Assembly (NCBI GenBank): GCA_035632955.1
Contig: DASQFU010000032.1
Span: forward strand, 1 to 62,261
DNA from: Candidatus Limnocylindria bacterium
GTDB taxonomy: Bacteria; Eisenbacteria; RBG-16-71-46
Direction of reading: 5' to 3'
Length of the DNA stretch: 62,261 bases
Position 1 is the first letter of the stretch, and each line of letters begins with the position of its first letter. The notes beneath the pieces are model-generated. The model made no database searches. It was given only the letters and a program-made list of their open reading frames with translations, and was not told the origin of the DNA. The position numbers were made by a program, and so were the translations under genes. Shown one piece after another: positions 49,842 through 57,843 of the stretch.

Positions 49842-50528
49842 TCATTGCACGACGCGTACGGCGATCACGTTCGCGTTGCAGCATCGCGTCAGCAGCTCCG
49901 CGATGTGCTCGAGCCCGACGGACAGGTGCCCGCCCGCGCGGTCGGGCGGGCAGAAGATGACGACGAGCAGATTGCGCGTCTTGGCGGTCACCGCGGTGCG
50001 CTGGGAGTCCGAGGTCGGAGCGCCGAACGGCCCGCCGTCGTCGGCCAGCACCAGACGTCCGGCGAGATTCACCCACTGCTTGCGGATGCCGGCGTAACCT
50101 TCGGTTTCGCGACCGACGCGGACCCGGACCGTGCCCTTGACGAGATCGCGGTCGTAGAGACCGAGCGGGAGCTGGTGCTCCAACGAGCACAGGTTACAGA
50201 CGTCGACCGCCGCGTTCACATGCGGCAGACCCTTGCCCTGCAGCACGCGGCGCAGCAGGGCTTCACTGCTCGGTCGCGTCTTGGTCGGATCGATGTCCAA
50301 CTGGTGGAACATCGCCCGGGTCTCGGCGACTCCCGGGATGTCCGCGGGCTGTTTGCCGGCATAGTGCGCGGCAAGGCGAGCAGTGAGGCGGTCGCGCTCC
50401 TCCTCGAACTCCGCCGGCAGGCGCCCGAGCTGAACGCCTTCCGCCTCGAGCAAGCCGAGCGCGACCACGCCACGCAAGCCATCGTCCACGGTGAGATGGA
50501 GGCTCTGACTGCGGGCCTGGAGGGACAT
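49842..50528 (-). CDS. Stand-alone B3/B4 domain protein (PheT-type tRNA editing fold)
   Basis: RBS GGAGG; IDPTKTRPSSEALLRR, NAAVDVCN..SL...PLGLYD, LVLADDGGPFG. Confidence 0.9.
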   Translation of the reverse strand: MSLQARSQSLHLTVDDGLRGVVALGLLEAEGVQLGRLPAEFEEERDRLTARLAAHYAGKQPADIPGVAETRAMFHQLDIDPTKTRPSSEALLRRVLQGKGLPHVNAAVDVCNLCSLEHQLPLGLYDRDLVKGTVRVRVGRETEGYAGIRKQWVNLAGRLVLADDGGPFGAPTSDSQRTAVTAKTRNLLVVIFCPPDRAGGHLSVGLEHIAELLTRCCNANVIAVRVVQ

Positions 50529-50961: not shown

Positions 50962-53676
50962 TCATGCGCTCGGGAGCGATTCTTCGCGATCCGCAGGCGG
51001 CAGCTTGCGCTCGATCGACACGACGCGATAGCGGCGGGGCGCGCCTTCGTGATCGAGCTCCACCGTGTCGCCGATCGACTTGCCCATCAGCGCACGGCCG
51101 ACCGGAGCCTGGAACGACACGACGTGGTCGCCGTGGTGCTGCTCGCCTTCGCCGAGGATCCAATAGGTGGTCAGCGCATCGTCGCTTTCGAGCACCACCT
51201 CCGTGCCAAGCCCGACCACCCCTTCCTCGAGCTCCGCATCTTCGACGAACCGCGCGCGACCCAGGCGGAGCTGCAGCGAAGCAACCTGCTTGCTCACGTT
51301 CGCCTGCTTCAGCTTCGCGGAATGGTACTCCGCGTTCTCCTTCAGATCGCCGAGCTCACGGGCCTTCTGAATCGTGGCCGGGATCGTGGTCCGCAGCTCG
51401 CGCTGCAGCCGTTCGAGCTCGCTCTTGAGCCGCTTCCACGTGGCGCGGGTCATCACCGGGATGTCGATGTCCCCTTGCTGGCCAACCTGGGAGAACAGCT
51501 TCGCGGTCCGCTGCTCCCTCGCTCCGTGCACGGTGTCGACCGCTTCCCCGAGGCCGAAACGGCGAGCGGCATCGAGGGCCGGGAATAGATAGCGGTCGCT
51601 CGAGCGCCACTGGCGGAGGAGAACCGTGAATTTGAGCACCAGCCTCTCCGGGCACGGCACGTTCGCCAGGTGGCGGTCGAACGCCCCCTGAGGCTCGAGC
51701 CAGGCGAGCACCTTCTCGGCCACCGAGGGCTTGGGACGATCCTCGATCACCGCGAGCGCCGCCCACAGCAACCGCCAGCCGTTGGGATGCGGCGGCGGCA
51801 TCGCCAGCTCGCGCTCCAGCATGCGTATCGCGGCCGCCGGATAGCGCGCCGCGTGTTCGACCAGCGTGCGCCGCATATCGTCGCGACCGGATTCGTCCAG
51901 AGCCTCGCGGTAGCGCTCGGCCGCTTCGCGCACCGAGGAGAATCGCGAGTCGAGCGCGGAGAGCAGGGCGTCGGCCTCGACACCGGCCGCGTGTGAAGCG
52001 TCGAGCAGATCGCGCTGCTCGCGCTCGCCGGAAAGGTCGGAGATCGCGAGCCCTCGCTCCCACAGCTCGCGCAACGCCGATCGCCATTCCTCCATGCGGG
52101 CCGGAAACCAGCGCGAGAAGTAGAGACCGGCCCGGGCGCGATCCGCCAGCACTCCCTCCTCGTCGAGCAGCGCCCGTTCGACGAACTTCCCGAAGCGCTG
52201 CTCCACCGTCGCTTCGGCGGTCGGATGCTGAGTGAGGAACTTGCGCAGCGTCGCGAGATTGGTGCGCACCGGCTTGCCCGGCGCGAGCGGCGGCAGCGGT
52301 AGCGGCGGCTCCACGGATCCCTGCGCGCGCTCCGGCGCCAGCCGGTAGTGCTGCTCGAAAGCCCGCGCGCTGTCCACTCGCGCGTCCTGCTCGGCCGCCG
52401 CACGCACCCGGCGGTAGAAGGCCGTCCACTCCCCGCTCGGAACCAGATTGGCCCCGACCAGGAACACCTTCAGCTTCTGCGCGTCGGCGGCGCCGCCGAG
52501 CGCGCGCAGCGCGCGCACCAGCATTTCGCCCGGCGCCTCGGCGCGCAGGCGTTGGAGCTCGCCGGGATCGGTCAGATGGAGCAACCGGAGATCGTCCTCT
52601 GCGATGGGCGTGAGGCTCCGGCGCGCGGCTGGGTACGGCATGCGATGGCCTCGCGAGCGCGCGAAGTCGATCACCACCACCTCGCCGTCGTCGGAGACGA
52701 CGCGGCCCGGCCCGAACGACCCGTGCAACACGGCGCGGCCGGGCGGCAGCGCGGCGATCTGATCGAAGCGCTCGAGCGCCGGCAGCAAAGGCTTGAGCGG
52801 GTCCGAGAGTCCGGAGGCGGCCAGCACGGCCTTGGCGTCCGGGAGTGCCTGGCCGGGGCCCGCGGCGAGCGCGATCAGCAGCGGCGCCCGGAACGGCTCG
52901 CCGCCGGCTGCGCCCAGGGCCAGGATCGCGCGCGTGGCGACGGCGCGCAGCGCGGCATACCCGTCCCCGGCCCGTCCCCGCTCCGCGATCACCGGCAGCG
53001 CGATCGCGATCAACTGCTGGGATTCGGTGAACGCCTCGTGTTCGGCGAGCCTCGGGAGCGTGTCGATCAGATTCACCAGCGCTTCGGCGTCGCCGTGCTC
53101 GGCGAACTCGAGCGCCGCCTCCTCGAGACCGGCGTAGCGCCGCTCTTCCGCAAAGCGCGGCAGCAGCTCGGCCAGCAACTCGCGACGATGCTCGCCCTGA
53201 CCCGCTTCGTCGAGGCGCACGGCGAGCAGCAGACCGAGCTCGAGGTCGTCGGGCATCAACGCCCAGGCGCGCTCCAGCGCTTCGATGCGCTCGGGGTCGC
53301 GGCCGAGCCCTTCGTGGGCGCGGACCAGCAGGTGCGCGGCGGCGTGCGTCTCGTTCAACGCCAACGCGGTCTCGGCGACCGCCGCGAGCGGCTCCCACGC
53401 CGCGGCCGCGACCAGGCGCTCGCCGAGTGCCAGGAGCGTCTGATGCGCGCGCTCGAGCTCGCCGTTGAGCGCGCACGCGGCCGCCAGCAGGTATTCGACG
53501 CTCGAGCTGGCGCCCGGCTGACGCAACCTCGCCGCGCATTCGTCACGCACGTACACGACCTGTCCCTCCGCGTGAGCACGATGGGCGAGATCGTCCAGGC
53601 GGTGGCGCGTCTCCGGATCGAGAGCGGTCGGCTCCTCGCCACGAAGGATCGGCGGCAGCTCGTCGCGTAAGGTCAT
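50962..53676 (-). CDS. greA: Long-form GreA/GreB-family elongation factor with a ~740-aa N-terminal extension
   Basis: C-terminal MTRATWKRLKSELERL...ARELGDLKENAEYHSAK...VGLGTEV...SFQAPVGRALMGK; N-terminal helical repeats and an HGSFGPGRV..IDF segment. Confidence 0.88.
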   Translation of the reverse strand: MTLRDELPPILRGEEPTALDPETRHRLDDLAHRAHAEGQVVYVRDECAARLRQPGASSSVEYLLAAACALNGELERAHQTLLALGERLVAAAAWEPLAAVAETALALNETHAAAHLLVRAHEGLGRDPERIEALERAWALMPDDLELGLLLAVRLDEAGQGEHRRELLAELLPRFAEERRYAGLEEAALEFAEHGDAEALVNLIDTLPRLAEHEAFTESQQLIAIALPVIAERGRAGDGYAALRAVATRAILALGAAGGEPFRAPLLIALAAGPGQALPDAKAVLAASGLSDPLKPLLPALERFDQIAALPPGRAVLHGSFGPGRVVSDDGEVVVIDFARSRGHRMPYPAARRSLTPIAEDDLRLLHLTDPGELQRLRAEAPGEMLVRALRALGGAADAQKLKVFLVGANLVPSGEWTAFYRRVRAAAEQDARVDSARAFEQHYRLAPERAQGSVEPPLPLPPLAPGKPVRTNLATLRKFLTQHPTAEATVEQRFGKFVERALLDEEGVLADRARAGLYFSRWFPARMEEWRSALRELWERGLAISDLSGEREQRDLLDASHAAGVEADALLSALDSRFSSVREAAERYREALDESGRDDMRRTLVEHAARYPAAAIRMLERELAMPPPHPNGWRLLWAALAVIEDRPKPSVAEKVLAWLEPQGAFDRHLANVPCPERLVLKFTVLLRQWRSSDRYLFPALDAARRFGLGEAVDTVHGAREQRTAKLFSQVGQQGDIDIPVMTRATWKRLKSELERLQRELRTTIPATIQKARELGDLKENAEYHSAKLKQANVSKQVASLQLRLGRARFVEDAELEEGVVGLGTEVVLESDDALTTYWILGEGEQHHGDHVVSFQAPVGRALMGKSIGDTVELDHEGAPRRYRVVSIERKLPPADREESLPSA

Positions 53677-53796
53677 GCCTGCTCGGGCGCGGGTGGGGGC
53701 GATAGGGTCGGTCAAGGGGTCACGAATGATGTCGAAAACACCGCGGCGAGGCAAGCGCTTGTGCGCGTGCGTGCTCGGCCCCTAGACTGCCGGCTC

Positions 53797-54357
53797 GTGA
53801 AGATCTATACCCGCACCGGAGACGACGGAACCACGGCACTGCTGGGAGCCGGGCGGCTCTTGAAGTCGGACGTGCGCGTCGAAGCCTACGGGACGGTCGA
53901 CGAGCTGAACGCGGCGCTCGGCTCGGCCCGGGCACAGGACTCGGGCAGCTGGCTCGCCGAGCCGTTGAGCGCGATTCAATCGCAGCTCTTCATGGTCGGC
54001 GCCGAGCTGGCCGCGCGCTCGAGCGAGTTGCTCGCGAAGCTCGACCGTGTCGGCGAGCCGGAGATCGCGGCCCTCGAGCGTGAAATCGACCGGCTCGACG
54101 CCGAGCTGCCTCCTTTGAAGCAGTTCGTCCTGCCGGCGGGAACGCCGTTCGCGACCTCGCTGCATCAGGCGCGCACCGTGTGCCGCCGGGCGGAGCGTCG
54201 CGTGGTGGCGCTCGCCCAGAGCGAAACGGTCGCGCCGCACGTCATCCGCTACCTCAATCGGCTGGCCGACCTGTTGTTCGTCATGGCCCGCTGGAGCAAC
54301 CAACGCGCGGGCGCCGCCGAAGTGCCGTGGCGTCCCGAAAAACGTCCTGGGGCATGA
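53797..54357 (+). CDS. PduO-type cob(I)alamin adenosyltransferase
   Basis: KIYTRTGDDGTT, AYGTVDELNAALG, FVLPAG, ARTVCRRAERR, YLNRLADLLF. Confidence 0.95.
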   Translation: MKIYTRTGDDGTTALLGAGRLLKSDVRVEAYGTVDELNAALGSARAQDSGSWLAEPLSAIQSQLFMVGAELAARSSELLAKLDRVGEPEIAALEREIDRLDAELPPLKQFVLPAGTPFATSLHQARTVCRRAERRVVALAQSETVAPHVIRYLNRLADLLFVMARWSNQRAGAAEVPWRPEKRPGA

Positions 54358-54712
54358 CTCGGCCCGACGCGGTGACGGCTGGACATCCGAGGCCCTCATC
54401 CCCATAATGCGGGCACACGCCGTTCGAGGAGGATCGATGATCCGGATGCCGGCGGGAACAGACCCGGCAACCGCGCCCCTCGCGGGTGGCTCCCTGATCT
54501 GAGCGCCGCCCTCGCTGAAATCGCGAGCGCGAACTTCGCGGCGAAAGCAACCGACCGCCTCCTTCGAGACTTGCCGAGGAGACGCCGCCGCGTCCAGGAC
54601 CCTGACGGCGGCGATGCACCACAGCCGCTGCGAGGTTTGCCGAACCACCGCACCCCACTTGGTGCGATTCCCCTACCCGCGGGCCTGTTGCCTGGGCCGC
54701 GAAGGAAACCCG

Positions 54713-55909
54713 ATGAGACCACGCCGTCGCCGACCCCGCGGTCCGCGTCCCACCACTCCCGGCACTCCCGGCGAGACACCCGCCGCCGGCGCACCCACCC
54801 AGCTCGGGCCGCGGCCGGCAGGACGCCGGCGCCGGCGCCGTAGCGGCAACAACCGCCCGATCAACAGCTCTCCGGGCCCCTACGCCGGCGCCAACAGCGG
54901 CGGCCGCGAAGCAACGACGTCGCAACGGCCACCGAGCCCCGGTCCGCGGCGCGGCGGCCGGCGTGGGCGGAGCGGCCCGCGCGGCAATGGCCCAGGAGAG
55001 CGGCGTCGCGGGCTCGAGGTGCTGCGCGATCTCCAGCAGATCGGCGTCGCGCTCGATCCGACCGAGCGGCTGCTGCTCGAGCTTCCGCCCGGCAAGGCCG
55101 AGCCGCCCTACGGGGATCGCATCACCGGTCGTGCGATCGACCTGATCGCACCGATCGGCCGGGGCCAGCGATGCCTGATCGTGTCGCCCCCCAAGGCCGG
55201 CAAGACCCGCATCCTCCAGATCATCGCGGCCTCGGTCGCGTTCAACCACCCCGAGGTCGGGATCTACGCGCTGCTCGTGGACGAGCGCCCGGAGGAAGTG
55301 ACGGATTTCCGCCGCAACACTCCGGCCGAGGTGATCGCGGCCTCGAGCGACATGAGCGTGGACGAGCACATCGAGACCGCCGAGCACGCGATGGAGGTCG
55401 TGGCCAGCAAAGTGCTCGAAGGCAAAGACGTGGTGCTGCTGCTCGATTCGATCACGCGACTGGCTCGTGCCTACAACGCGGGCGCCGAGGGCAGCGGGCG
55501 CACGATGTCGGGAGGCCTCGATTCGGCGGCGATGCAAGCCCCGCGGCAGATCTTCGGCGCCGCACGCAAGATCGAGGACGCCGGCTCACTGACGATCGTC
55601 GGCACCGCGCTGGTCGACACTGGCTCGCGCATGGACCAGGTGATCTTCGAGGAGTTCAAGGGCACCGGCAACATGGAGCTGGTGCTGTCGCGCGAGCTCG
55701 CCGAGAAGCGCATCTACCCGGCGATCGACATCGCCAAGAGCGGTACGCGCAAGGAAGAGAAGCTCTATCCGCCCGAGATCGTCCCGCGGCTCCATTTGTT
55801 GCGCCGCGGACTGGCGGGACTCCATCCGGTCGAGGCGATGACCAAGCTGCTCGAGCTGCTCACCAAGCTGAAGAGCAACCAGGACATCTTCGACCTGCTC
55901 AAGTCGTGA
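54713..55909 (+). CDS. rho: Transcription termination factor Rho, short form lacking the OB-fold RNA-binding domain
   Basis: DLIAPIGRGQR, PPKAGKT, DERPEEVTD, LLDSITRLARAYN, SGGLD, IFEEFKGTGNME, YPAIDIAKSGTRKEE; about the first 100 aa are low-complexity R/G/P. Confidence 0.93.
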   Translation: MRPRRRRPRGPRPTTPGTPGETPAAGAPTQLGPRPAGRRRRRRSGNNRPINSSPGPYAGANSGGREATTSQRPPSPGPRRGGRRGRSGPRGNGPGERRRGLEVLRDLQQIGVALDPTERLLLELPPGKAEPPYGDRITGRAIDLIAPIGRGQRCLIVSPPKAGKTRILQIIAASVAFNHPEVGIYALLVDERPEEVTDFRRNTPAEVIAASSDMSVDEHIETAEHAMEVVASKVLEGKDVVLLLDSITRLARAYNAGAEGSGRTMSGGLDSAAMQAPRQIFGAARKIEDAGSLTIVGTALVDTGSRMDQVIFEEFKGTGNMELVLSRELAEKRIYPAIDIAKSGTRKEEKLYPPEIVPRLHLLRRGLAGLHPVEAMTKLLELLTKLKSNQDIFDLLKS

Positions 55910-55968: not shown

Positions 55969-57843
55969 ATGAACGCCCTGGCCGCCACGGGTGCGGTGCG
56001 ATCTTCTGCATCTCGCCGAGACTTCCTGCTCGGGTTGGCCGGACTCGCGATCGCCGCGTCCGCCACGTGGTCCGCGTTCCGTCTCGCGCGCATTGCCATA
56101 TCCGATCCCGGTCTGCCGCTCTGGGACGAGGCCGCCCAGTGTCTGGCCAGTCTTCGCCTTGCGGATGCGATCCGCCACCTCGACGTGCTGACGTTTCTCG
56201 CCGTCATCAATCAGCAGGTGGTGTGGCCGTTCGTACAGCCCGTGCTTCTGATGCCGTTCTTCCTGGCACTCGGACCCGGCTACGACACGGGCTCGGTTGG
56301 CGGTGCCGTGCTGTTCGTGGCCGCGACCATTGCCCTGTTCGCCGCCGGGGCGGCGCTCCATTCCTCCCGCGGCGCCTGGGTGGGCGCTGCGAGCGCCGCG
56401 CTGCTCCTGGCCGCACCCTACCCTCATGTGTTCGGGACGCTCGGGCTGACCGAGATGTCGGGAGCGTTTCTGCTCGCGACCACGGTGGCGCTCCATGCGC
56501 GCGCCGCGCGTCATCGCGGATTCGATGTGGCGGCGGGCCTCACGACCGCGGCTCTGTTCCTGTGCAAGTACAACTACGGCCTGCTGTGGCTCGTGCCGCT
56601 CGTCTGGCACGAGTGGACGCGCCTGCCCGCCCCTTCGCGATCCGCCGCGACGTCGCAGGTGCGGGCATGGCTCGCAGCCGGGCGATGGATGCAGCCCATG
56701 CCGTTGCTCGTGGGGGCTGGCGGCCTGGCGATCGCCGCGATTCTCGTGACCGGTGGCGGAGTCCTCGATCTACTCGGGCATCGCGTTTCGGTTCACTCGC
56801 CAGGGAACCTGGCCTACGCGCTCTATCTGATCGTGATCGCGTGGGCCCTGTTGCCGGTTCGCCGGCGTCTGGCGGAATGGCGCGATCGCTGGGACCGGCT
56901 CTCGCCACATCACCGCGTGATGCTGGTCACGATCGCGTTCCCTCTCGCGCTGTGGTTCGTGATCCCCTATCCCAATCGCGTCAAAGAGTTCTTTGGCTTC
57001 ATCGTCAACCGCGCGGCCGGGCCATCGCCGTGGTCGCTCGAAGGACTGCTCTACTACCCGCGCGCCTTCGCCTCCGAATACTCGCCAAGTCCCTTCGTCG
57101 GCTGGTCGGTGCTGGCGCTCGCGTTCGTGCCGCCGCGCCCCGGGTATAGGGCGGCGACCCTCGTGTACCGCGCGCTTTGGGTGGGGCTGGTCGCGACCAC
57201 GCTCCACCGCTATCACGATCCGCGGTTTCTCTTCACCGTGGCGCCGCTCGTGTGGCTCAGCGCCGCGCGCGCAGCAAGCGAGCTGGTCGACATCGCGCTT
57301 CGGCCACTACCGTCACAGGCGCGCGCTCTGCTCTCGGGGGCCGTGCTGGTCGCGGTGCTGGCCTGGGTCGCGTGGGGTTCACCGGACGAGTCTCGGGTGC
57401 TCGCCGGGCATCGGGCCTATCGCACGTCCGACGTTTTGGCGCCGGTCATGGACCGTGTGCTCGACCTGGCCCACGAGAAAGACGCCGTGCTGCTCGGCTA
57501 CTCGAACCCACTGAGCCCCGGTCTGCTCGCATGGCATGCGAGACGACGTCGGCCGGAGCGGCCACATCCACGACTGCCGGAGCGGGCCCCGTGGCTCGCC
57601 GAAGGCGCGGACGAGAGCGCCATCCAAGCTCGCATCGCGGGACTGAGAGGTCCCGGGCGCTTGGTGATCGCGGCGATTCCGAAACCTGACTCGCCCGCGT
57701 ACTCCGACGCCTATCGGCGTGAAGTGTGGGCCGACAGCGTGACCGCAGAGCGCCTGGCCATCAGCCCCGGCGTACGTCACGAAGCCGACGAGGAGATCGG
57801 GGTCGCCCGGTTTCGGCTACGCGTTTTTGCCTTCGCGAACTGA
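55969..57843 (+). CDS. GT-C membrane glycosyltransferase (ArnT/PMT-like, GT39/83)
   Basis: PLWDEAAQ, LTEM, LFLCKYNYG, DPRFL; many TM helices and a soluble C-terminal domain. Confidence 0.78.
   Translation: MNALAATGAVRSSASRRDFLLGLAGLAIAASATWSAFRLARIAISDPGLPLWDEAAQCLASLRLADAIRHLDVLTFLAVINQQVVWPFVQPVLLMPFFLALGPGYDTGSVGGAVLFVAATIALFAAGAALHSSRGAWVGAASAALLLAAPYPHVFGTLGLTEMSGAFLLATTVALHARAARHRGFDVAAGLTTAALFLCKYNYGLLWLVPLVWHEWTRLPAPSRSAATSQVRAWLAAGRWMQPMPLLVGAGGLAIAAILVTGGGVLDLLGHRVSVHSPGNLAYALYLIVIAWALLPVRRRLAEWRDRWDRLSPHHRVMLVTIAFPLALWFVIPYPNRVKEFFGFIVNRAAGPSPWSLEGLLYYPRAFASEYSPSPFVGWSVLALAFVPPRPGYRAATLVYRALWVGLVATTLHRYHDPRFLFTVAPLVWLSAARAASELVDIALRPLPSQARALLSGAVLVAVLAWVAWGSPDESRVLAGHRAYRTSDVLAPVMDRVLDLAHEKDAVLLGYSNPLSPGLLAWHARRRRPERPHPRLPERAPWLAEGADESAIQARIAGLRGPGRLVIAAIPKPDSPAYSDAYRREVWADSVTAERLAISPGVRHEADEEIGVARFRLRVFAFAN

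What the first reader, a model, noticed from the sequence alone, without database searches (positions are those of the whole stretch)
54713..55909. Rho with the primary RNA-binding OB fold replaced by an Arg/Gly/Pro-rich disordered tail
The ATPase, Q-loop, R-loop and Arg-finger motifs are intact. The N-terminal helical bundle and the OB domain (DGFGFL...DIYVS) are absent, and I found no trace of them in other frames upstream. About 100 aa such as RPRRRRPRGPRP...GRRRRRRSG...GPRRGGRRGRSGPRG take their place. Known: the OB fold binds rut sites, and a disordered insertion drives Rho condensation in Bacteroides. Inference: sequence-independent RNA capture or condensate formation, or a modulatory subunit for a canonical Rho.
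Basis: partly seen in the sequence, partly recalled or inferred. Interest (0 to 1): 0.65.

Follow-up and report, generated by a model that had tools for sequence, protein, structure and literature searches.

The report
Second Rho lacking its RNA-binding domain
This uncultured soil-type bacterium (Candidatus Eisenbacteria) has a normal Rho termination factor plus a conserved second copy in which a floppy, arginine-rich tail replaces the RNA-recognition domain, so it can test whether a Rho motor can load onto RNA without its classical binding site.

Summary
Window 54713..55909 (+) encodes a 398-aa protein. Residues about 100-398 form a complete Rho connector plus RecA-type ATPase, with every catalytic and in-ring RNA-contact residue present. 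Residues 1-99 are a disordered tail (24% Arg, 20% Gly, 18% Pro, net charge about +22). It has no Rho_N bundle and no OB fold.

The tail is translated and under selection. A conserved Shine-Dalgarno and ATG precede an invariant MRxRRRRPRGPRP N-terminus. Three Arg clusters and an NRPxNNxxPxPY motif are conserved through synonymous codon changes.

It is not the cell's only Rho. A canonical full-length rho lies on another contig of the same genome, and 75 of 87 genomes of the family carry at least two Rho genes. The OB-less form is one well-supported clade found in five Eisenbacteria families. Other families carry an OB+ATPase or an IDR+OB+ATPase second Rho instead. It is not NCBIfam's 'paralog_Rho2' and not the published 'Group B/Type 4' form, since both keep the OB. 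Similar OB-less, basic-tailed Rhos occur sporadically elsewhere (for example Hydrogenedentes) and arose independently.

Most likely it is an active accessory Rho ring that captures RNA through its polycationic tails. Mixed rings with canonical Rho are not excluded. I file it as a new variant of a known kind.

The parts
54380..54408 (+). Promoter-like site (TGGACA-17-CATAAT) just after the upstream gene's stop. It would give a leader of about 300 nt.
   Evidence: 1 site found against 0.1 expected in shuffles. It is not conserved in relatives, so it is weak.
54702..54706 (+). Shine-Dalgarno AAGGA, 7-11 nt upstream of the ATG.
   Evidence: One search gives the sequence. In one search, AAGGA is at least 80% conserved across 29 family upstream regions that are otherwise unalignable.
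54713..55909 (+). Complete CDS of the OB-less Rho paralogue (398 aa plus stop).
54713..55009 (+). Disordered polycationic tail, residues 1-99.
   Evidence: no secondary structure, pLDDT 33-55. family statistics: length 89-137, R 24%, G 20%, P 18%, net charge +12 to +23, hydrophobic residues 4%.
54713..54751 (+). Arg cluster 1: invariant N-terminal peptide MRPRRRRPRGPRP.
   Evidence: 32 of 43 loci are exact; the rest are cut by contig ends or are near variants. One search shows synonymous codon variation under invariant residues.
54824..54883 (+). Arg cluster 2 plus motif: RRRRRR-SG-NNRPINSSPGPY (family consensus RRRRRRxRGxNRPxNNxxPxPY).
   Evidence: invariant R39-R42, R48, N51, Y57; the motif is unique in the genome.
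54947..55009 (+). Arg cluster 3: RRGGRRGRSGPRGNGPGERRR.
   Evidence: R79, R80 and R99 are conserved.
55010..55132 (+). Connector, residues 100-140. It comprises the helix GLEVLRDLQQIG, then ALDPTERLLLE...GDRITGR. This is homologous to the NTD-CTD linker of canonical Rho.
   Evidence: helix at 100-110; alignment to the genome's own canonical Rho starts at residue 114; the element is also conserved in the divergent OB-less forms.
55091..55114 (+). Family-specific 8-residue insertion GKAEPPYG in the connector.
   Evidence: present in all sequences of the window's family; a gap in the other OB-less families and in canonical Rho.
55133..55906 (+). Rho RecA-type ATPase domain, residues 141-398.
   Evidence: (PF00006), (ungapped alignment to E. 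coli Rho 155-417).
55184..55207 (+). Walker A / P-loop SPPKAGKT (E. coli K181, K184, T185).
55283..55288 (+). Catalytic Glu and Arg valve, E191-R192 (E. coli E211, R212).
55445..55447 (+). Walker B Asp, D245 (E. coli D265).
55484..55522 (+). Q-loop AEGSGRTMSGGLD of the in-ring secondary RNA site (R263 = E. coli K283; S266 = T286).
   Evidence: R and S at these positions also occur in many canonical Rhos.
55616..55636 (+). R-loop DTGSRMD (R306 = E. coli K326).
55748..55750 (+). Arg finger R346 (E. coli R366).
53761..54357 (+). Upstream neighbour: PduO-type cob(I)alamin adenosyltransferase. It is syntenic with the paralogue throughout the family.
   Evidence: PF01923, 199 bits; synteny.

Best explanation
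The gene encodes an accessory member of the Rho family: an ATP-driven ring RNA translocase.

It keeps the whole motor: connector, RecA ATPase, the in-ring secondary RNA site, the Arg finger and the bicyclomycin-pocket residues. It has lost both parts of the N-terminal domain. A roughly 100-residue disordered, strongly cationic tail replaces them.

Shown here:
- The architecture.
- Its conservation under purifying selection.
- Its coexistence with a canonical rho.
- Its single origin within Eisenbacteria.

Inferred:
- Six subunits form a ring whose six tails (about +130 charges in total) take over the capture step. In canonical Rho the OB-fold primary binding sites perform this step.
- The tails hold RNA electrostatically, with little sequence preference, and hand it to the central channel. 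ATP-driven 5'-to-3' translocation then proceeds as in canonical Rho.
- Because the canonical Rho in this 70% GC genome is a plain type without any basic insertion, the paralogue probably serves RNAs that C-rich, unstructured rut recognition handles poorly, that is, structured G+C-rich transcripts. This would be a division of labour that Actinomycetota achieve inside one polypeptide.

Whether it acts as a homo-hexamer or also mixes with canonical subunits is open.
For: Motor intact:
- all key residues are invariant in 29 of 29 OB-less sequences.
- only two positions separate all OB-less forms from canonical Rho.
- the fold matches Rho.

No OB fold or Rho_N: (five of five divergent OB-less forms also lack PF07497).

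Tail real and selected:
- conserved SD and ATG.
- conserved motifs.
- synonymous variation.
- similar Arg-rich, net-positive composition in the distant OB-less families.

Accessory status:
- canonical rho at G000:C161.
- all 13 genomes of the family that were sampled hold two Rho genes.
- 75 of 87 family genomes hold at least two.
- apparent 'short-only' genomes hold canonical fragments at contig ends.
- the paralogue core is 83-85% identical between genome pairs whose canonical CTD is 94-95% identical. It is constrained, but less than the housekeeping copy.

One origin: searches give the OB-less clade SH-aLRT 98.

Recurrence elsewhere: searches show independent OB-less, basic-tailed Rhos. This argues that the design works.

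Precedent:
- The disordered insertion domain of M. tuberculosis Rho is required to engage structured Rut sites in a GC-rich genome (PMC13650167).
- Arg-rich insertions of M. tuberculosis and M. luteus Rho raise RNA affinity (PMC11347177).
Against: - There are no biochemical data for any OB-less Rho.
- Deleting the first 27 residues of E. coli Rho abolishes its RNA binding (cited in PMC11347177). Loss of the whole N-terminal domain could therefore cripple loading unless the tail really compensates.
- The tail carries precise conserved motifs: an invariant N-terminal peptide and NRPxNNxxPxPY. These look more like docking motifs for a specific partner than like a generic polycation.
- The link with G+C content is weak, rests on local GC of a few loci, and is not phylogenetically corrected.
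- The core is close enough to canonical Rho (about 52% identity, few class-specific changes) that mixed rings cannot be excluded.
Confidence: 0.6

Rival explanations
1. It is a modulatory subunit. The OB-less protein co-assembles with canonical Rho into mixed hexamers. This changes the number of primary binding sites per ring and adds cationic tails, so it tunes (or poisons) canonical termination rather than acting alone.
For: - It always coexists with a canonical rho.
- The ATPase cores are about 52% identical, and very few class-specific substitutions separate them.
- Hetero-hexamers have been proposed in the literature for species with two rho genes (PMC11347177).
Against: - The paralogue clade is old and sits on a long branch, clearly apart from the canonical Eisenbacteria clade.
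- It evolves about three times faster than the canonical CTD in the same genome pairs. This is not what tight co-assembly predicts.
- The two genes are unlinked, on different contigs.
- No interface analysis or multimer model could be run.
Confidence: 0.2
2. It has a role other than termination. The motor would work as an RNA remodeller, an R-loop or RNP clearing enzyme, or the scaffold of an RNA-rich condensate. The conserved tail motifs would dock a specific partner such as the ribosome, RNA polymerase or a degradosome-like assembly.
For: - The tail holds short, sharply conserved motifs between variable linkers. This is typical of docking motifs.
- R/G-rich disordered regions promote phase separation, and this is reported for the insertion of Bacteroides thetaiotaomicron Rho (cited in PMC11347177).
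- In the window's family the gene is syntenic with a 930-aa GreA-domain fusion protein.
Against: - No partner was identified.
- The synteny holds only within one family and is absent from the other OB-less families, so it may merely reflect relatedness.
- The motifs occur in no other protein of the genome.
- The motor residues are exactly those of a termination factor.
Confidence: 0.13
3. It is an artefact or a decaying gene: a frameshift, a misassembly or a wrong start hides or removes the OB fold, or the 'tail' is an untranslated GC-rich leader read in frame.
For: - In a 70% GC genome any frame looks Arg/Gly/Pro/Ala-rich.
- Gene callers give starts of varying length for homologues, 320-411 aa.
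Against: - The same architecture occurs in dozens of independent assemblies.
- No OB is found in any frame of the contig.
- A conserved SD and ATG and an invariant N-terminal peptide define the start.
- Synonymous variation lies under invariant residues, and all indels preserve the frame.
- The core is strongly conserved.
Confidence: 0.02

Closest known systems
Canonical Rho (E. coli type; 'Type 1' of Moreira et al. 2024, PMC11347177; TIGR00767 / PRK09376)
   Same: It shares the connector and the RecA ATPase domain, with Walker A/B, catalytic Glu, Arg valve, Arg finger, Q- and R-loops and bicyclomycin-pocket residues. It aligns without gaps to E. coli Rho 155-417.
   Different: It lacks the whole N-terminal domain: the Rho_N bundle and the OB-fold primary RNA-binding site. 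A 99-aa polycationic disordered tail takes its place. It is a second copy beside a canonical Rho.
'Group B' (D'Heygere et al. 2013) / 'Type 4' Rho and NCBIfam NF041509 'paralog_Rho2, short form'
   Same: These are also short second Rho copies that lack the N-terminal helical bundle. Such forms exist in other Eisenbacteria families.
   Different: Those proteins keep the OB-fold RNA-binding domain; this one does not. It scores 330 bits on NF041509 against a cut-off of 628, and matches only profile positions 84-357. This is lower than the canonical Rhos of the same genomes score, about 470 bits.
Rho with Arg-rich disordered insertions ('Type 2': M. tuberculosis NID, M. luteus, Bacteroides thetaiotaomicron)
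   Same: It has an Arg-rich intrinsically disordered segment N-terminal to the motor. The organism is GC-rich. The proposed role is in engaging structured RNA or in condensation (PMC13650167; PMC11347177).
   Different: In those proteins the disordered region is an addition between Rho_N and an intact OB fold in the cell's main Rho. Here it stands in for the OB fold, in an accessory paralogue.
'Rho-like' sequences of Moreira et al. 2024 (proteins with only one Rho domain, found in 421 species)
   Same: By that paper's definition this protein is 'Rho-like', because it has the Rho ATPase domain only.
   Different: That class is a residual bin, set aside as non-functional and treated only in a supplement that I could not read. 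The conserved tail motifs, the clade structure and the coexistence pattern described here are not in the main text.

Membership tests
Rho transcription termination factor (canonical; TIGR00767 / PRK09376) | Rho-specific RecA ATPase domain with Walker A/B, catalytic Glu, Arg valve and Arg finger | tested here: met
   K161/K164/T165, E191/R192, D245 and R346 are invariant. PRK09376 scores 370.8 bits (cut-off 315).
Rho transcription termination factor (canonical; TIGR00767 / PRK09376) | Secondary (in-ring) RNA-binding site: Q-loop and R-loop | tested here: met
   R263 (E. coli K283), S266 (T286) and R306 (K326). The same residues occur in many canonical Rhos.
Rho transcription termination factor (canonical; TIGR00767 / PRK09376) | OB-fold primary RNA-binding domain (Pfam Rho_RNA_bind, PF07497) | tested here: not met
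   no hit at E<=1; no hit on the contig in any frame; residues 1-99 are unstructured.
Rho transcription termination factor (canonical; TIGR00767 / PRK09376) | N-terminal helical bundle (Pfam Rho_N, PF07498) | tested here: not met
Rho transcription termination factor (canonical; TIGR00767 / PRK09376) | Full-length equivalog score (TIGR00767 cut-off 509 bits) | tested here: not met
   366 bits, profile positions 141-414 only. The genome's canonical copy scores 716 bits.
Rho transcription termination factor (canonical; TIGR00767 / PRK09376) | Hexameric ring, RNA-dependent ATPase, 5'-to-3' translocation and release of transcripts | not testable with these tools
   This needs biochemistry. Only a monomer model could be made.
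NCBIfam NF041509 paralog_Rho2 (Rho, short form) | Whole-protein score at or above 628 bits over the 360-position profile | tested here: not met
   330 bits, profile positions 84-357. No Eisenbacteria Rho reaches the cut-off.
'Group B' / 'Type 4' Rho (PMC11347177) | Lacks Rho_N but retains the RNA-binding OB domain and the ATPase domain | tested here: not met
   The OB is absent. True examples from other Eisenbacteria families do show PF07497.
Rho with disordered insertion ('Type 2', e.g. M. tuberculosis NID) | Disordered region added before or between Rho_N and an intact OB domain | tested here: not met
   A disordered region is present, but there is no Rho_N or OB to flank it. IDR+OB+ATPase paralogues do exist in families f15 and f16.
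'Rho-like' bin of Moreira et al. 2024 | Only one of the three Rho domains is detectable | tested here: met
   Searches detect the ATPase domain only. The definition was read.

The most novel reading that the evidence does not exclude
A polycationic disordered tail is a complete functional substitute for Rho's OB-fold primary binding site.

Under this reading the paralogue is an autonomous termination factor that loads without reading any rut sequence. It would be specialised for structured, G+C-rich transcripts. Eisenbacteria would then run two parallel Rho systems: a canonical one that reads C-rich RNA, and a tail-based one.

The same solution has arisen repeatedly in unrelated uncultured lineages, for example Hydrogenedentes.
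Probability: 0.3. Interest if true: 0.75.

Novelty: new variant of a known kind. Interest (0 to 1): 0.6.

Why it matters
Textbook Rho action starts when the OB-fold crown recognises C-rich, unstructured rut RNA. How much of termination needs that step is still debated (RNA-centric versus polymerase-bound models).

This protein is a natural Rho motor with the entire N-terminal domain removed and a simple cationic tail in its place. It has been kept under selection across five families of a phylum, beside a normal Rho.

It is a ready-made reagent for two questions:
- Can a Rho ring load, translocate and terminate without a primary binding site?
- Can an Arg-rich disordered region alone select substrates? 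Recent work on the M. tuberculosis insertion domain suggests this.

It also shows that annotation pipelines label as plain 'transcription termination factor Rho' a protein that fails a defining feature of the family.

Tried and rejected
- Protein-query searches of relatives' genomes failed twice. I used family and alignment queries instead.
- The supplement of Moreira et al. 2024, which describes the 'Rho-like' sequences, is not held.
- Literature searches found no description of an OB-less Rho. The terms tried were Rho paralogue, OB-less or NTD-less Rho, and Eisenbacteria plus Rho.
- Rfam found nothing in the leader or the gene. The leader is not conserved apart from the SD, so I dropped the idea of a Rho-type autoregulatory leader.
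- A search of the genome's six frames for the tail motifs found no other carrier. I dropped the idea of a motif shared with other RNA-handling proteins.
- The 'sole Rho' reading floated in earlier notes is rejected.
- Membership in NF041509 is rejected.
- I considered descent of the OB-less clade from the OB-bearing paralogues. The tree leaves it unresolved, and an AU test does not reject one origin for all paralogues (p 0.29) or for the IDR-bearing ones (p 0.30). A recurring N-terminal (G)RRP(R) motif in several families is only suggestive.
- Gene neighbourhoods of the divergent OB-less forms share nothing with the window.
- A link between OB-less forms and higher G+C is weak.

Full report
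**What is there.** Window 54713..55909 (+) is an uninterrupted ORF of 398 codons.
- Pfam recognises only the generic ATP-synt_ab nucleotide-binding domain, even at E<=1.
- NCBIfam's Rho models match strongly, but only with their C-terminal two thirds. PRK09376 scores 371 bits on profile 153-412. TIGR00767 scores 366 bits on profile 141-414, below its 509-bit cut-off.
- Against solved structures the protein aligns without a single gap to E. coli Rho residues 155-417, so E. coli numbering is this protein's numbering plus 20.
- The following residues are all present: Walker A K161/K164/T165, catalytic E191, Arg valve R192, Walker B D245, Q-loop R263 and S266, R-loop R306, Arg finger R346, and the bicyclomycin-pocket residues. 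All are invariant in 29 of 29 OB-less sequences sampled.
- The R-for-K and S-for-T replacements in the two RNA loops are also common in canonical Rhos, including this genome's own.

**The N-terminus.**
- Residues 1-99 are 24% Arg, 20% Gly, 18% Pro and 4% hydrophobic, with net charge about +22.
- An AlphaFold2 model built on 19 homologues gives this stretch no secondary structure and pLDDT 33-55. A helix follows at residues 100-110, then a confident RecA core.
- Foldseek's listed top 50 PDB matches are all Rho chains, over about 290 columns.
- A six-frame search of the whole 3.14-Mb assembly with Rho_RNA_bind finds nothing on the window's contig. No OB fold is therefore hidden by a frameshift.
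- The gene immediately upstream is a PduO-type adenosyltransferase.

**Is the tail translated?** In a 70% GC genome any frame looks Arg/Gly/Pro-rich. Six-frame translation of this genome contains 234 runs of six or more Arg. Composition alone therefore proves nothing. Four observations settle the question.
1. Upstream regions of 29 relatives are unalignable except for an AAGGA Shine-Dalgarno about 7-11 nt before ATG-AGA (window 54702-54706 and 54713).
2. The N-terminal peptide M-R-x-RRRRPRGPRP is exact in 32 of 43 family loci. The rest are cut by contig ends or are near variants such as RRRRSRGPRP.
3. Thirteen tail columns are invariant at the amino-acid level; all but the ATG start use 2-5 synonymous codons. 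Third-position diversity is 1.6 times that of positions 1-2 in the tail, against 3.5 times in the core. Tail lengths vary from 89 to 137 residues with the frame always kept.
4. The tail has internal architecture: three Arg clusters separated by variable Gly/Pro/Gln linkers, and a conserved RRRRRRxRGxNRPxNNxxPxPY block. These motifs occur nowhere else in the genome.

**It is a second Rho.**
- The same genome carries a canonical rho on contig C161. It scores 716 bits on TIGR00767 and 124 bits on Rho_RNA_bind, is about 421 aa, and has the usual helical bundle and OB motifs and no insertion.
- The two proteins are 53% identical over the motor. Similarity begins at residue 114 of the paralogue, in the connector that follows the OB fold in canonical Rho.
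- The organism is Candidatus Eisenbacteria. All relatives at 75-92% identity in named genomes carry that label or are unclassified ('uncultured bacterium') MAGs. The next-best hits, at 50-57%, are essentially all Rhos of other phyla.
- All 13 sampled genomes of the window's family hold both genes.
- In a phylum-wide sample of 201 genomes, 75 of 87 genomes of this family hold at least two Rho genes.
- Three of the four genomes that seemed to hold only the short form turned out to carry canonical rho fragments broken at contig ends. There is no solid case of the OB-less protein being the only Rho. This contradicts the boldest reading in earlier notes of this scan on sister genomes.

**Place among Rho variants.** Eisenbacteria families carry one of three kinds of second Rho, or none.

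| Second Rho | Size | Families |
|---|---|---|
| OB + ATPase | about 370 aa | f7, f12, f13 |
| Long Arg-rich disordered region + OB + ATPase | 650-750 aa | f15, f16, one f12 genome |
| Disordered region + ATPase, no OB | 398 aa here | window's family f1, and f3, f4, f8, f10 |
| None | - | at least eight families |

- The OB + ATPase kind is the published 'Group B/Type 4' design.
- Pfam confirms Rho_RNA_bind in the first two kinds and its absence in five of five divergent OB-less forms.
- On a tree of the motor domain the OB-less proteins form one clade (SH-aLRT 98). This clade is distinct from the canonical Eisenbacteria clade and from the other two paralogue clades.
- The order of branching among the paralogue clades is unresolved. 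An AU test does not reject a single origin of all paralogues (p = 0.29).
- The distant OB-less families keep the connector helix and an Arg-rich, net-positive disordered region of 200 or more residues.
- NCBIfam's 'paralog_Rho2, short form' (NF041509) is a different thing. The window's protein scores 330 bits against a cut-off of 628 and matches only profile positions 84-357. The canonical Rhos of these genomes score higher, about 470 bits.
- In the scheme of Moreira et al. 2024 the protein falls into the residual 'Rho-like' bin (one Rho domain only). That bin is set aside from the 'functional' Rhos and treated only in a supplement I could not read.

**Beyond Eisenbacteria.**
- A profile search of 1.84 billion representative proteins shows only about six 50%-identity clusters above the plateau of ordinary Rhos.
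- Inside that plateau there are other short Rhos with basic disordered N-termini and no OB motifs. One is labelled Candidatus Hydrogenedentes.
- They do not join the Eisenbacteria clade on the tree.
- One of them is nearly an orphan whose nearest relatives mostly keep the OB.
- Loss of the OB in favour of a basic tail has therefore probably happened several times. The Eisenbacteria clade is by far the largest such group that I saw.

**How it probably works.** Shown: an intact, constrained Rho motor; a translated, selected polycationic tail with conserved motifs; accessory status. The remaining points are inference.
- A hexamer would display six tails with about +130 charges where canonical Rho has its crown of OB folds. 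The simplest mechanism is electrostatic, largely sequence-blind capture of RNA by the tails. Hand-over to the conserved Q- and R-loops and normal ATP-driven translocation would follow.
- The disordered insertion domain of M. tuberculosis Rho is required to engage structured Rut sites in a GC-rich genome. This makes it plausible that such a region can dominate substrate choice.
- The canonical Rho here lacks any basic insertion and the genome is about 70% GC. A division of labour between the two Rhos is therefore attractive.
- The only direct hint for that is a weak, uncorrected trend of OB-less forms toward the higher-GC families.
- The paralogue's core evolves about three times faster than the canonical CTD between the same genome pairs (83-85% against 94-95% identity). 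This fits an accessory rather than an essential role.

**Rivals.**
- Mixed rings with canonical Rho cannot be excluded. Only two positions separate all OB-less forms from canonical Rho, and hetero-hexamers have been suggested for two-rho species.
- The sharply conserved short motifs could instead dock a specific partner or nucleate condensates.
- Synteny with a 930-aa GreA-domain fusion protein holds across the window's family but not beyond it, so I give it little weight.
- Artefact and pseudogene readings are contradicted by the evidence above.

**Verdict.** The proposed functions remain untested. This is a new variant of a known kind: a conserved OB-less, polycationic-tailed Rho paralogue that current family models and the literature do not describe.

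Noticed in passing
window 50962..53754 (-): A 930-aa protein whose last 150 residues or so are a complete GreA/GreB unit (GreA_GreB_N 67 bits at 766-834; GreA_GreB C-terminal domain 53 bits at 843-914). About 760 N-terminal residues precede it with no Pfam match. Ordinary GreA is about 160 aa. The gene is divergently transcribed from the PduO / OB-less-rho pair and is syntenic with it across the family (57-69% identity where full-length), but not in the other OB-less families.
   Followed up: partly
window 55091..55114 (residues 127-134): An 8-residue insertion GKxxPPYG sits in the Rho connector. It is invariant in the window's family and absent from the other OB-less families and from canonical Rho. 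Together with the tail's PxPY it gives two Pro-Pro/x-Tyr elements per subunit. Their meaning is unknown.
   Followed up: partly
window 54716..54718 (codon 2): The second codon is AGA in 28 of 29 family members, and the first Arg cluster favours CGT. Both look atypical for a genome of about 70% G+C (codon usage was not measured). This may be a translation-initiation constraint at the start of a very GC-rich gene.
   Followed up: no
window 55969..57843 (+): A 624-aa polytopic membrane protein with no Pfam match lies directly downstream. It is conserved downstream (48-59% identity) in about ten family loci.
   Followed up: partly
loci L137, L140, L179, L184, L185 (Eisenbacteria families f15 and f16) and L180 (f12): These second Rho copies of 650-750 aa have a 300-400-residue Arg/Gly/Asp/Pro-rich disordered N-terminus followed by an OB fold and the motor. 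In the f15/f16 copies (not L180) the N-terminus begins with a conserved M-x-K-S-S-R-x-[WY]-G-R-R-P-R peptide. A similar (G)RRP(R) element sits near the N-terminus of OB-less forms of families f3 and f4. This hints at a series: OB, then IDR+OB, then IDR only.
   Followed up: partly
proteins P0126 (Candidatus Hydrogenedentes), P0129, P0130, P0150, P0211: These are independent OB-less Rho-like proteins of 314-396 aa with Lys/Arg/Asn-rich or Arg-rich N-terminal tails of 30-110 residues. They fall outside the Eisenbacteria clade. Whether their genomes also hold a canonical rho was not determined.
   Followed up: partly
G000:C48, + strand frame starting near 49888: A 539-codon open frame contains ...GPRRRRRRGRRGRGGG.... 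It may be another genuine protein with an Arg/Gly-rich disordered segment in this genome.
   Followed up: no
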